DNA of 64,000 nt, from NCBI RefSeq assembly GCF_030013205.1, contig NZ_CP122648.1, one strand, 5' to 3'. Origin of the DNA: Escherichia coli (lineage in GTDB: Bacteria; Pseudomonadota; Gammaproteobacteria; Enterobacterales; Enterobacteriaceae). This document shows, in pieces, positions 49,395-50,123 of this stretch (positions are counted from its first letter, which is position 1; the number at the start of each line of letters is the position of its first letter). The translations under genes and the position numbers were made by a program. The notes under the pieces are model-generated. The model was given only the letters and a program-made list of their open reading frames with translations, was not told the DNA's origin and did no database searches.

Positions 49395-50123
49395 ATGGAA
49401 GTTTTCTGGGTAGTTGTTGGTGTGGTTGCGGTGATTATTTACGTTATCAACCAGAACAAGACTAAGATCTCTGATCGTACGGTCGTTAATCATAACAAAA
49501 CGATAAAGACTGAAGATGGGGAGATAACGATTAATCGTACACAGGTGATAGAACACACCTCCACTCAGTTTCAAAAAACGGGAGATAATGCGCCTAATAT
49601 TTCCGTACCTCCTGCTTATGATAGCGCGGTAATCCAGACATATTATAAACAGCAGGAGTTAGCAAAAGAGAGGCAACTGATTCAGCCAAAGCCGTTTACA
49701 GCTGAGCTTCCACCCGGAGTGTCAACGCGTCCGGCATATCATGGAAGATTCCCTGGTGATGACATATCGTCTCAGTCATCTAAAAAAGCACCTCAGGCAG
49801 TATCAGAGCCAGCAAGAATACCTTCTGTATCGCCGCCAAAAGAAGAATCAGCTAACAGAGTTTCAAGTGGTAGCAAGCAGTGCTTGCGATGCAGAATAAA
49901 CCTTCCATATGAAAAATTCAGGAAATCGTCAAAAAATCCAGATGGATTGACTAAGTGGTGTGCAAGGTGTCTCGATGGCCCAAAGAATACACGCCATATG
50001 AAGTGGTGCCCAATTTGTAATGTCCGCAGAAAACGAACTAGCTTTTACCCTAATAATCAAAATGCGGACGGCTTAATGGCATGGTGCAAAACGTGCTGGG
50101 ACGAGCACAAAGCGAAACGATAG
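49395..50123 (+). CDS. membrane-anchored protein with duplicated C-terminal CxxC-N21-CxxC zinc-ribbon motifs
   Basis: N-terminal TM (VFWVVVGVVAVIIYVI); repeats CLRCR...NPDGLTKWCARC and CPICN...NADGLMAWCKTC; operator-like sites upstream at 49266-49282 and 49359-49375. Confidence 0.55.
   Translation: MEVFWVVVGVVAVIIYVINQNKTKISDRTVVNHNKTIKTEDGEITINRTQVIEHTSTQFQKTGDNAPNISVPPAYDSAVIQTYYKQQELAKERQLIQPKPFTAELPPGVSTRPAYHGRFPGDDISSQSSKKAPQAVSEPARIPSVSPPKEESANRVSSGSKQCLRCRINLPYEKFRKSSKNPDGLTKWCARCLDGPKNTRHMKWCPICNVRRKRTSFYPNNQNADGLMAWCKTCWDEHKAKR

What the first reader, a model, noticed from the sequence alone, without database searches (positions are those of the whole stretch)
49395..50123. Membrane-anchored protein with tandem zinc-ribbon repeats
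A single N-terminal TM helix, a ~130-aa low-complexity linker and two near-identical CxxC-N21-CxxC units each containing NPDGL/NADGL-x3-WC. It is flanked by operator-like palindromes and sits between two genes sharing a paralogous domain. I do not recognise this architecture.
Basis: seen in the sequence. Interest (0 to 1): 0.55.

Follow-up and report, generated by a model that had tools for sequence, protein, structure and literature searches.

The report
Membrane-tethered zinc-ribbon prophage accessory protein
This is a real, conserved but uncharacterised prophage accessory gene whose product is predicted to be anchored in the inner membrane, to hold two nuclease-type zinc ribbons in the cytoplasm, and to be switched by the prophage's own repressor; it is probably a phage-competition factor, but that is untested.

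Summary
The ORF at 49395..50123 (+) is real. It is intact at 242 aa in 53 of 53 close viral loci, conserved from E. coli to Aeromonas and Acinetobacter, and under purifying selection.

Predicted anatomy:
- an N-out/C-in transmembrane helix that is unusually conserved
- a conserved juxtamembrane beta-hairpin
- a variable disordered linker
- two CxxC-N22-CxxC zinc ribbons, 35% identical to each other

The ribbons belong to the Stc1 / endonuclease-VII-N-terminal / PacI-Hpy99I type of Zn module. That module is found in HNH, GIY-YIG, Bro-N and helicase proteins. The target has no catalytic motif.

The window is an epsilon15/phiV10-like prophage inserted next to guaA. The gene is an 873-bp cassette that phiV10 lacks, with its own promoter and terminator.

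The -10 of that promoter lies inside a perfect copy of a 17-bp palindrome, ATTACC-N5-GGTAAT. The palindrome occurs 16 times in the window against 1.8 expected, including next to the repressor and cro genes. The gene is therefore probably repressor-controlled. The same arrangement recurs in other genera with their own operator variants.

No characterised homologue exists (PHROG 6762; no PADLOC, NCBIfam or significant Pfam hit). Best guess, at low confidence, is capture or exclusion of competing DNA at the membrane. Interest is moderate.

The parts
49272..50144 (+). Accessory cassette holding promoter, operator, ORF and terminator. It is present in TL-2011b-type prophages and absent from phiV10.
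   Evidence: blastn of the window against phiV10: homology ends at 49271 and resumes at 50145. tblastn finds the protein in only 6 of 50,697 phage records.
49338..49343 (+). Candidate -35 hexamer TTGATC of the gene's own promoter.
   Evidence: A TTGAnn hexamer lies 14-15 nt upstream of the palindrome in E. coli, Enterobacter, Salmonella, Serratia, Pectobacterium and Providencia loci. It is identical in 53 of 53 E. coli-type loci. The generic scan did not call it; it was inferred from conservation.
49359..49375 (.). Perfect 17-bp operator palindrome ATTACCTTTAAGGTAAT. Its left half holds the candidate -10 TACCTT (49361-49366), 17 nt after the -35.
   Evidence: The motif ATTACC-N5-GGTAAT has 16 matches at 2 or fewer mismatches against 1.76 expected; 0 of 100 shuffles reach 16. 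Copies flank the repressor and cro genes. It is perfect in 52 of 53 related loci.
49384..49388 (+). Ribosome-binding site GAGGA.
   Evidence: Read from the sequence.
49395..50123 (+). CDS of 242 aa (RefSeq WP_001525322.1, 'hypothetical protein'; PHROG 6762).
   Evidence: Intact in 53 of 53 loci. dN/dS about 0.2-0.3 overall and about 0.09 in the Zn domain.
49401..49454 (+). Transmembrane helix, residues 3-20, predicted N-out/C-in.
   Evidence: Kyte-Doolittle 2.3. AF2 helix 3-20 with pLDDT about 90. The N-terminus is 'ME' and 'NQN[KR]TK' follows the helix in all homologues. M1 and G9 are invariant; E2, F4, V7, V10 and V11 are at least 90% conserved.
49470..49559 (+). Conserved juxtamembrane beta-hairpin, residues 26-55.
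   Evidence: AF2 strands 26-39 and 42-55 with pLDDT about 76. T39 and G42 are invariant and E43 nearly so.
49560..49868 (+). Variable linker, residues 56-158, rich in P, S, Q and A. It includes a weak helix at 74-93 and a disordered stretch at about 95-158.
   Evidence: pLDDT mostly below 60. Length varies among homologues. dN is 0.4-1.3.
49875..49976 (+). Zn ribbon 1, residues 161-194 (C163, C166, C189, C192).
50001..50108 (+). Zn ribbon 2, residues 203-238 (C205, C208, C231, C234; invariant R211 and R212).
   Evidence: Matches PHROG 2633 'endonuclease VII' and PHROG 5558 'Lar-like', covering the Zn part only.
50122..50149 (+). Intrinsic terminator: 7-bp GC-rich stem, 4-nt loop and T-run, starting at the stop codon.
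   Evidence: Terminator scan. The hairpin is kept in all 53 related loci.
49266..49282 (.). Context: second operator copy (1 mismatch) at the start of the divergent c4-ant (immI-like) operon.
   Evidence: A promoter-like TTGATT-18-TATCAT lies at 49310..49281 on the minus strand.
49048..49243 (-). Context: C4 antisense RNA (49048-49135), isrK-like RNA (49154-49230) and c4 a1/b1 targets (49191-49243), all upstream of the Bro-N antirepressor gene.
   Evidence: Rfam: C4 78.6 bits (gathering 45); isrK 74.7 bits (gathering 50); a1b1 39.9 bits, below its gathering score of 46.7.
48307..48999 (-). Context: Bro-N antirepressor gene. Its C-terminal domain is the paralogue of the 91-aa ORF.
   Evidence: PHROG 130 Ant, E=5e-52. 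RefSeq calls it a BRO-N domain protein. Paralogy shown.
50145..50420 (-). Context: convergent small gene (85-91 aa, PHROG 450). It is similar to phiV10 p24, which the phiV10 record describes as similar to epsilon15 gp19, and it is a stand-alone copy of the Ant C-terminal domain.

Best explanation
**Shown or strongly supported**
- The gene is an autonomous accessory cassette of an epsilon15/phiV10-like prophage.
- Its product is predicted to be a bitopic inner-membrane protein, N-terminus out and bulk in the cytoplasm. It has a conserved TM helix, a conserved beta-hairpin at the membrane face, and a flexible linker of about 100 residues.
- The linker carries a tandem pair of non-catalytic Cys4 zinc ribbons of the nuclease-associated (Stc1 / EndoVII-N / PacI) type.
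- The promoter's -10 lies inside a copy of the prophage's dispersed operator. The gene is therefore expected to be silent while the repressor is bound, and to switch on with the antirepressor operon at infection or induction.

**Inferred**
- The basic ribbon pair binds nucleic acid at the cytoplasmic face of the membrane. The protein acts in phage-versus-phage competition.
- Proposed mechanism: it captures or blocks foreign (superinfecting) DNA as it emerges through the inner membrane. The conserved TM and hairpin segment would dock to itself or to a membrane partner.
- This makes it a functional analogue, not a homologue, of exclusion genes that occupy the same genomic slots: P22 sieA between the ejection genes and the tailspike, and lambda rexAB behind cI.
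For: **Real gene under selection**
-.

**Topology and fold**
-.

**Nature of the Zn module**
- PHROG hits cover the Zn parts of endonuclease VII, HNH, Lar-like and primase families.
- AFDB50 neighbours are annotated Stc1, EndoVII, HNH, GIY-YIG, T5orf172, Bro-N and NUMOD4.
- Among 64 multi-repeat relatives, 8 carry HNH and 6-8 carry Endonuclease_7. Single members carry helicase, Bro-N, KilA-N or T5orf172 domains.
- The same two-ribbon unit ends a Mokosh MkoC-like helicase.
- The domain has 20 K+R against 6 D+E, with invariant K161, K203, R211 and R212.

**Accessory cassette**
- It is absent from phiV10 and from most sequenced relatives.
- It has its own terminator.
- Its orientation and position vary between phages.

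**Genomic slot**
- It sits between the ejection-protein genes and the tailspike, beside Bro-N, KilA-N, ANT or P22_AR_N antirepressors, Arc/Mnt and HicAB.
- In two Aeromonas-type phages it lies directly behind cI on the same strand.

**Repressor control**
-.

**TM helix**
- It is far more conserved than a passive anchor needs to be.
Against: - No experiment exists, and there is no hit in PADLOC.
- Nucleic-acid binding is inferred only from domain associations and charge. The eponymous Stc1 domain is a protein-binding module (own knowledge). One relative fuses the ribbon pair to a J-domain, which would also fit protein binding.
- If the operator works as predicted, the gene is off in stable lysogens of the enterobacterial phages. 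Exclusion would then operate only during infection or induction.
- The Zn domain is highly conserved (omega about 0.09). That is unusual for an arms-race sensor.
- The family occurs in phages with different DNA-delivery machines: podovirus-type, a tape-measure-bearing phage and lambda-like Aeromonas phages. A SieA-like interaction with one conduit type is therefore unlikely.
- The operator-overlapped promoter is not evident in several lineages (L082-L096).
Confidence: 0.33

Rival explanations
1. Abortive-infection-type effector. The Zn ribbons sense invading nucleic acid or a phage protein. Binding clusters the conserved TM helices and beta-hairpins, which permeabilise the inner membrane and kill or arrest the cell.
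For: The TM helix has an invariant Gly and a highly conserved sequence, and the hairpin is conserved. Both suggest self-association or effector activity rather than a passive anchor. The gene lies in the Rex-like position behind cI in Aeromonas-type phages. HicAB and other membrane ORFs are neighbours.
Against: A tandem-fusion AF2 model of residues 1-95 gave no confident dimer: mean pLDDT 44, pTM 0.27. One TM helix per chain is a weak pore former. There is no PADLOC hit. A toxic effector switched on in the phage's own lytic cycle would harm that phage.
Confidence: 0.15
2. Membrane tether for the phage's own DNA, in the manner of phi29 p16.7. Made after derepression, it would attach replicating or packaging phage DNA, or the host nucleoid, to the inner membrane to organise lytic development.
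For: The predicted expression pattern is off with repressor and on at induction. The architecture parallels phi29 p16.7, an integral membrane protein that binds DNA and terminal protein and recruits phi29 DNA to the membrane (PMC4974454). The Zn module is of the nuclease-associated type.
Against: The gene is accessory: it is absent from phiV10 and from the other sequenced relatives of this prophage in the phage collection. It occurs in unrelated phage types with different replication modules. It is co-oriented directly behind cI in Aeromonas phages, which suggests expression in lysogens, where such a function is not needed.
Confidence: 0.15
3. Membrane-sequestering regulator of the lysis-lysogeny switch. 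The ribbon pair binds a protein, such as a repressor, antirepressor or host factor, and holds it at the membrane or hands it to a membrane protease. This would tune immunity.
Against: The Zn domain is nearly the same in phages with different repressors and operators, so a phage-specific regulator is an unlikely ligand. Providencia, L079 and L096 loci have no adjacent antirepressor. The structural matches to protein-binding Zn domains are weak.
Confidence: 0.15
4. Active membrane-bound nuclease, a cryptic HNH/EndoVII-type enzyme.
For: Sequence and fold neighbours are Zn sites of beta-beta-alpha-Me nucleases.
Against: Pfam HNH and Endonuclease_7 models do not match. The matches cover only the accessory Zn part of those families. 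No His or Asn in catalytic register is conserved: the invariant residues are Cys, K, R, D, G, T, W, L and P, plus M1.
Confidence: 0.03

Closest known systems
Accessory zinc-ribbon modules of phage HNH / endonuclease VII nucleases, and the Cys4 sites of PacI and Hpy99I
   Different: There is no catalytic beta-beta-alpha-Me core and no Pfam HNH or Endonuclease_7 match. Here two ribbons stand alone at the end of a membrane tether.
Stc1 domain (Pfam PF12898)
   Same: It is the only Pfam family that touches both ribbons. 42 of 64 multi-repeat relatives match it weakly and 2 match significantly. AFDB neighbours are annotated as Stc1 domain-containing.
   Different: The hits for the target are E=0.2 and E=0.92, which is not significant, and they cover only the C-terminal part of the model (positions 51/52-83 of 84). 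Stc1 is a eukaryotic, soluble, protein-binding module (own knowledge).
P22 SieA superinfection exclusion protein
   Same: It is an inner-membrane prophage accessory protein encoded between the ejection-protein genes and the tailspike, beside the immI genes (position from own knowledge of the P22 map). It blocks entry of superinfecting DNA (PMC10883804).
   Different: There is no sequence relationship. SieA has three TM helices, about 162 aa and no Zn domain, and it is expressed from the prophage. The target has one TM helix, a large cytoplasmic domain and a promoter overlapped by an operator.
Phage phi29 p16.7 (and, for architecture only, E. coli ZipA)
   Same: An N-terminal membrane anchor plus a cytoplasmic ligand-binding domain. 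p16.7 binds DNA and recruits it to the membrane (PMC4974454). ZipA likewise has an N-terminal TM helix, a long P/Q-rich linker and a C-terminal globular binding domain (own knowledge).
   Different: The folds and sequences are unrelated. p16.7 belongs to a protein-primed lytic phage of Bacillus. ZipA binds FtsZ.
Lar-like restriction alleviation proteins (PHROG 5558)
   Same: Ribbon 2 matches positions 7-47 of the 130-position profile, E=2.7e-9.
   Different: Only the Zn ribbon is shared. There is no Pfam Lar match. Lar-type proteins are small and soluble.

Membership tests
PHROG 6762 (uncharacterised phage protein family) | Full-length match to the family profile. | tested here: met
   E=1.7e-149, residues 1-242 against profile positions 1-242 of 242.
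HNH / endonuclease VII (beta-beta-alpha-Me) nucleases | Match to Pfam HNH or Endonuclease_7, and conserved catalytic His plus Asn/His metal ligands. | tested here: not met
   No Pfam hit to these families. PHROG matches cover only the accessory Zn region. No conserved His or Asn in register among 24 homologues.
HNH / endonuclease VII (beta-beta-alpha-Me) nucleases | Cys4 zinc-ribbon scaffold of the same fold. | tested here: met
Stc1 domain (PF12898) | Significant match to the Pfam model. | tested here: inconclusive
   E=0.2 and 0.92 for the two ribbons. Relatives: 2 of 64 at E<=0.001 and 42 of 64 at E<=0.1. AFDB neighbours carry the Stc1 annotation.
Lar-like restriction alleviation | Match across the family profile and a small soluble protein. 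| tested here: not met
   Only profile positions 7-47 of 130 match. The target is membrane-anchored and 242 aa long.
Known anti-phage defence systems (PADLOC-DB v2) | Match to any defence-protein model. | tested here: not met
   0 families at E<=0.1.
P22 SieA-type exclusion proteins | Sequence homology and a three-TM inner-membrane protein of about 160 aa. | tested here: not met
   One TM segment. No hit among the PHROG matches to a family annotated as superinfection exclusion. SieA features taken from PMC10883804.
P22 SieA-type exclusion proteins | Blocks DNA entry of superinfecting phage. | not testable with these tools
   Needs plating, potassium-efflux and DNA-entry assays.
Moron / autonomous accessory cassette | Own promoter and terminator, and absence from close relatives at the same locus. 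| tested here: met
   Conserved -35/-10. Terminator. 873-bp insertion relative to phiV10. Orientation varies between phages.
Regulon of the prophage repressor | Operator of the same family as those next to the repressor and cro genes, overlapping the promoter. | tested here: met
   Motif statistics. O_L/O_R-type sites at 31448, 31510 and 32222 beside the repressor gene 31583..32167. A perfect site over the -10. The changed-spacing control is negative. Actual binding and repression were not tested.
Zinc-binding anti-sigma (ZAS) factors | HxxxCxxC motif in an N-terminal cytoplasmic domain followed by a TM helix. | tested here: not met
   The motif is absent and the TM helix is N-terminal.

The most novel reading that the evidence does not exclude
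The protein is a new single-gene, membrane-tethered sensor or trap for invading nucleic acid, that is, a previously unrecognised exclusion or defence family. Its two-ribbon unit is a portable nucleic-acid-recognition module shared with Mokosh-like helicases, PbeA-like helicases, J-domain proteins and homing-type nucleases. Temperate phages wire this gene directly into their repressor regulon, so that it fires only when the phage itself goes lytic.
Probability: 0.25. Interest if true: 0.7.

Novelty: new variant of a known kind. Interest (0 to 1): 0.45.

Why it matters
**Function, if confirmed**
- A membrane-tethered tandem Zn-ribbon protein would add a new architecture to phage-encoded exclusion or defence functions.
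- It would also give a function to a widespread, unnamed two-ribbon module found in 3074 representative proteins at E<=0.001.

**Regulatory layout, independent of function**
- An epsilon15-like podovirus carries a P1-style immI module (C4 RNA) and a dispersed 17-bp operator.
- That operator sits on nearly every transcription unit, including this accessory cassette.
- This suggests that some 'morons' are not lysogenic-conversion genes but repressor-silenced lytic-phase genes.

**Prevalence**
- The gene is present in 128 of 5426 complete E. coli genomes, including porcine ETEC and avian APEC strains.

Tried and rejected
- **Sequence libraries.** Pfam gives only a non-significant Stc1 match. NCBIfam and PADLOC give nothing. 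The PDB by sequence gives only PacI at E=0.31.
- **Plasmids.** tblastn finds no match.
- **Literature.** Searches for the protein accessions and the PHROG id found no papers. A keyword search for membrane-anchored zinc-ribbon exclusion proteins found nothing relevant.
- **Homodimer test.** A tandem fusion of residues 1-95 with a 50-residue GS linker gave mean pLDDT 44 and pTM 0.27, which is inconclusive.
- **Promoter alignment.** MAFFT misplaced the Serratia and Providencia sequences. The conserved geometry was read directly from the raw sequences.
- **Recurring promoter motifs in other lineages.** None was found in L083, L084, L091, L096, YeP5 or the Buttiauxella element. Operator control is therefore not shown for the whole family.
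- **TL-2011b annotation.** GenBank marks a longer misc_feature starting 360 nt upstream. That stretch is the C4/isrK region on the other strand, so a longer ORF was rejected.
- **Active nuclease.** Considered and rejected because no catalytic residues are conserved.
- **Cleavable signal peptide.** Considered and rejected because the n-region has no positive charge and no cleavage motif is evident.
- **Downstream junction.** The variant sequence after the terminator in 35 of 53 loci is only a local difference. The downstream gene is the same.
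Full report
**What is at the coordinates**

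A 242-aa ORF runs from 49395 to 50123 on the + strand. GAGGA lies 7 nt before the ATG.

Residues 3-20 are the only strongly hydrophobic stretch, with Kyte-Doolittle mean 2.3. The eight cysteines form four CxxC motifs at 163/166, 189/192, 205/208 and 231/234.

The spacing between paired CxxC motifs is 22 residues, not 21. The shared motif is N[PA]DGL-x2-WC. The two units are 35% identical over 40 residues, E=1e-7. They are clear repeats but not near-identical.

**It is a real gene**

The window is an E. coli prophage of the epsilon15/phiV10 type.
- The DNA is 97% identical to phage TL-2011b, where the region is only a misc_feature.
- It occurs in 128 of 5426 complete E. coli genomes, always chromosomal, and RefSeq annotates it as a hypothetical protein.
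- The prophage lies next to guaA. This matches the guaA attB reported for the Uetakevirus vB_EcoP_ZX5 (PMC9782041).

All 53 close IMG/VR loci carry an intact 242-aa ORF.

Full-length homologues at 30-63% identity occur in Superficieibacter, Enterobacter, Citrobacter, Salmonella, Serratia, Providencia, Pectobacterium, Buttiauxella, Yersinia phages YeP4-6 and an Aeromonas phage. AFDB adds Acinetobacter.

Selection differs by segment:
- The Zn domain has omega about 0.09 within E. coli and dN of 0.08-0.3 across genera.
- The TM and hairpin segment has omega mostly about 0.1-0.3 (one close pair gave 1.4).
- The linker has dN of 0.4-1.3.

**Anatomy**

The AF2 model built on 24 homologues gives the following:
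- a TM helix at 3-20, pLDDT about 90
- a long beta-hairpin at 26-55, pLDDT about 76
- a weak helix at 74-93
- disorder to about residue 158
- two zinc ribbons at 160-241, pLDDT mostly above 90

The N-terminus is 'ME' and the helix is followed by NQN[KR]TK in every homologue. By the positive-inside rule the N-terminus is outside and the rest is cytoplasmic, which suits Cys4 zinc sites.

The TM helix is unusually conserved. M1 and G9 are invariant, and E2, F4, V7, V10 and V11 are at least 90% conserved. This argues that it does more than anchor the protein. The '130-aa low-complexity linker' is therefore only partly a linker.

**What the zinc ribbons are**

PHROGs place the whole protein in family 6762, of unknown function, at E=1.7e-149. 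The ribbons alone hit the Zn-bearing parts of 'endonuclease VII' (PHROGs 1035 and 2633), 'Lar-like restriction alleviation' (5558), HNH and primase families.

Pfam gives only sub-threshold Stc1 matches. The PDB by sequence gives PacI at E=0.31.

AFDB50 lists the uncharacterised family members first. It then lists Stc1-domain, endonuclease VII, HNH, GIY-YIG, T5orf172, Bro-N and NUMOD4 proteins.

A profile search of 1.84 billion representatives finds 3074 proteins at E<=0.001. About 50-60 of them are full-length family members, by my reading of the hit list. The rest carry one to ten copies of the ribbon.

Of 64 multi-copy relatives:
- 8 have HNH domains
- 6-8 have Endonuclease_7
- single members have ResIII/DEAD helicase, AAA_11/12, Bro-N, KilA-N or T5orf172 domains

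The specific two-ribbon unit, in which ribbon 2 carries the KxC..C..RRxK motif, also appears in other architectures:
- at the end of a Mokosh MkoC-like helicase (P0110)
- after a J-domain (P0099)

In the target no His or Asn is conserved in catalytic register, and no HNH or EndoVII model matches. The pair is therefore a non-catalytic module. It is very basic, with 20 K+R against 6 D+E.

I infer nucleic-acid binding from these associations. It has not been shown.

**Genomic setting**

On the minus strand immediately upstream, Rfam finds three elements:
- a C4 antisense RNA at 49048-49135, 78.6 bits
- an isrK-like RNA at 49154-49230, 74.7 bits
- the c4 a1/b1 targets, below their gathering score

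These are followed by a Bro-N antirepressor gene at 48307..48999. This is a P1/P7-type immI module inside an epsilon15-like podovirus. Over-expression of the Bro-N antirepressor of a related phage pushes it towards lytic growth (PMC9782041).

Downstream and convergent is an 85-91-aa gene (PHROG 450), similar to phiV10 p24, which that record describes as similar to epsilon15 gp19. It is a stand-alone copy of the antirepressor's C-terminal domain, 42% identical over 74 aa, E=1e-19.

Compared with phiV10, homology stops at 49271 and resumes at 50145. The target therefore sits in an 873-bp insertion that carries its own promoter and terminator. Most sequenced relatives lack it.

**The palindromes**

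The downstream palindrome (50122-50139 plus a T-run) is an intrinsic terminator.

The upstream one, ATTACCTTTAAGGTAAT at 49359-49375, belongs to a family, ATTACC-N5-GGTAAT.
- The family has 16 matches at 2 or fewer mismatches against 1.76 expected; 0 of 100 shuffles reach 16.
- The same half-sites with N7 spacing give 1 match against 1.37 expected.

The best sites map as follows:
- 31448 and 31510, 62 bp apart, just beyond the 3' end of the repressor gene (31583..32167, minus strand)
- 32222, plus a weaker site at about 32270, between the repressor gene and the cro-like gene (32322)
- 34571 and 34633, again 62 bp apart, in front of the next rightward unit
- 48225, 49266, 49359 and 50478, in front of each transcription unit of the accessory region
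- 53334, in front of the holin gene

This is the pattern expected of the prophage repressor's operator, dispersed in the manner of P1 C1. Binding itself is inferred.

**The promoter**

A -35-like TTGATC (49338-49343) lies 15 nt before the palindrome. That places TACCTT, inside the left half-site, at the -10 position with a 17-nt spacer.

The same geometry recurs in other genera:
- Enterobacter, Citrobacter and Salmonella: TTGACC-15-ATTACC...
- Serratia: TTGAAC-15-GTTACC...
- Pectobacterium: TTGACA-14-TTTACC...
- Providencia: TTGAAT-15-ATTAACC...

It is invariant in 53 of 53 (the -35) and 52 of 53 (the operator) E. coli-type loci.

In Pectobacterium the palindrome has the local form TTTACC-N5-GGTAAA. 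That form occurs 7 times in 12.6 kb against 0.52 expected, including next to the replication genes. The cassette's operator therefore tracks the resident phage's specificity.

I conclude, by inference, that in these phages the gene is silent while the repressor is bound and is derepressed together with the ant operon.

This is not universal.
- In the Aeromonas phage phiARM81mr and in L097 the gene follows cI directly on the same strand.
- In several other lineages no recurring promoter motif was found.

**Context across phages**

The gene always sits in accessory positions:
- between the ejection-protein genes and the tailspike, beside Bro-N, KilA-N/ANT, Rha or P22_AR_N antirepressors, Arc/Mnt or HicAB
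- next to a tape-measure gene (L096)
- between ejection genes and a small gene preceding a 536-aa ORF that I read as the terminase (L083, L084)
- in a small Buttiauxella element with resolvases and a CI-like repressor
- behind cI

Its orientation relative to the late genes differs between phages. These are the slots that hold sieA in P22 and rexAB in lambda (own knowledge of those maps; SieA properties from PMC10883804).

**Most likely mechanism**

The anatomy suggests a tether. A conserved membrane-embedded and juxtamembrane part would self-associate or dock to a membrane partner. A flexible arm of about 100 residues follows. A basic two-ribbon head recognises something common to many hosts and phages.

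Three observations make a phage-competition role the best single reading:
- the nuclease and helicase company the module keeps
- the gene's accessory distribution
- its placement in exclusion-gene slots

The proposed role is capture or blocking of incoming foreign DNA at the cytoplasmic face of the inner membrane. I put this at about 0.33.

The rivals are:
- a DNA-triggered membrane-damaging abortive effector (0.15)
- a phi29 p16.7-like tether for the phage's own DNA (0.15; PMC4974454)
- a protein-sequestering modulator of the immunity switch (0.15)
- an active nuclease (0.03)

The main counter-evidence to the favoured view is as follows:
- The predicted repression in lysogens limits any protection to infection or induction.
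- The Zn domain is strongly conserved.
- The family is spread across phages with different DNA-delivery machines.
- There is no experimental or PADLOC support.

**Novelty and verdict**

The architecture is uncharacterised, but its Zn module is a known and widespread type. This is a new variant of a known kind, not a new category.

The better-supported and arguably more interesting result is regulatory. An accessory cassette's promoter is built into a copy of the prophage's dispersed operator, next to a P1-type C4/ant module in a podovirus.

Interest is 0.45.

Noticed in passing
window 31448, 31510, 32222, 32607, 34571, 34633, 48225, 49266, 49359, 50478, 53334: A dispersed 17-bp palindrome, ATTACC-N5-GGTAAT, occurs 16 times against 1.8 expected. 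It lies next to the repressor and cro genes and in front of nearly every transcription unit, including the holin operon. Two pairs are exactly 62 bp apart. This looks like a P1-C1-style multi-operator regulon in an epsilon15-like podovirus. The holin-proximal site is also kept in the Salmonella relative (L014, position 633).
   Followed up: partly
window 49048-49243 (-): A C4 antisense RNA, an isrK-like RNA and c4 a1/b1 target sites lie upstream of the Bro-N antirepressor gene. This is a P1/P7-type immI module in a Uetakevirus-like prophage. TL-2011b annotates this stretch only as a misc_feature.
   Followed up: partly
window 50145-50420 (-) and 48307-48999 (-): The small gene next to the tailspike (PHROG 450, similar to phiV10 p24 / epsilon15 gp19) is a stand-alone paralogue of the antirepressor's C-terminal domain (42% identity, E=1e-19). 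It has its own perfect operator at 50478. It could be a second mini-antirepressor or a decoy.
   Followed up: partly
window 47124-48199 (-), operator at 48225: A two-gene unit of 69 aa (PHROG 5739) and a 288-aa multi-TM protein (PHROG 3630), both of unknown function, also sits behind an operator copy. A homologue of the 288-aa protein sits near the target in Providencia (L086). A perfect 15-bp-stem hairpin (47925-47960) lies inside the 5' end of the 288-aa ORF.
   Followed up: no
window 49327-49337; L012, L014 and L071-L077 at about -75 to -60 from the ATG: A second palindrome abuts the -35 of the target promoter. It is GCGTTTAACGC in E. coli and TGTGAC(A/G)TGTCAC(A/G) in most of the Enterobacter/Citrobacter/Salmonella group (imperfect in L012). 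It may be a site for another regulator.
   Followed up: no
proteins P0110, P0099, P0050: The same two-ribbon unit is fused to a Mokosh MkoC-like helicase in place of that profile's C-terminal region, and to a J-domain. Arrays of about 10 single ribbons alternating with other segments precede a PbeA-like helicase. The module appears to be a portable recognition domain in defence-type proteins.
   Followed up: partly
window 53088-53297 (-): A short ORF has an N-terminus resembling that of the 287-aa ORF which follows the tailspike in TL-2011b (L058, start MNNKGNII...). I take both to be acyltransferase-3-like. Here it is only 69 aa and on the opposite strand, so it is probably a remnant of an O-antigen acetyltransferase conversion gene.
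   Followed up: no
window 46272-46832 (+): A 186-aa ORF with a signal-peptide-like N-terminus (PHROG 11983, unknown function) follows the 850-aa virion/ejection protein gene and is followed by a strong terminator (46846-46863). It is another likely accessory gene.
   Followed up: no
L002 / L011 (E. coli K_EC180, NZ_CP062203.1): In this genome, which carries a copy of the target 100% identical to the window, RefSeq marks partial genes in the middle of the prophage, including an ead/Ea22-like fragment. The prophage is partly degraded there, yet the target cassette is intact.
   Followed up: no
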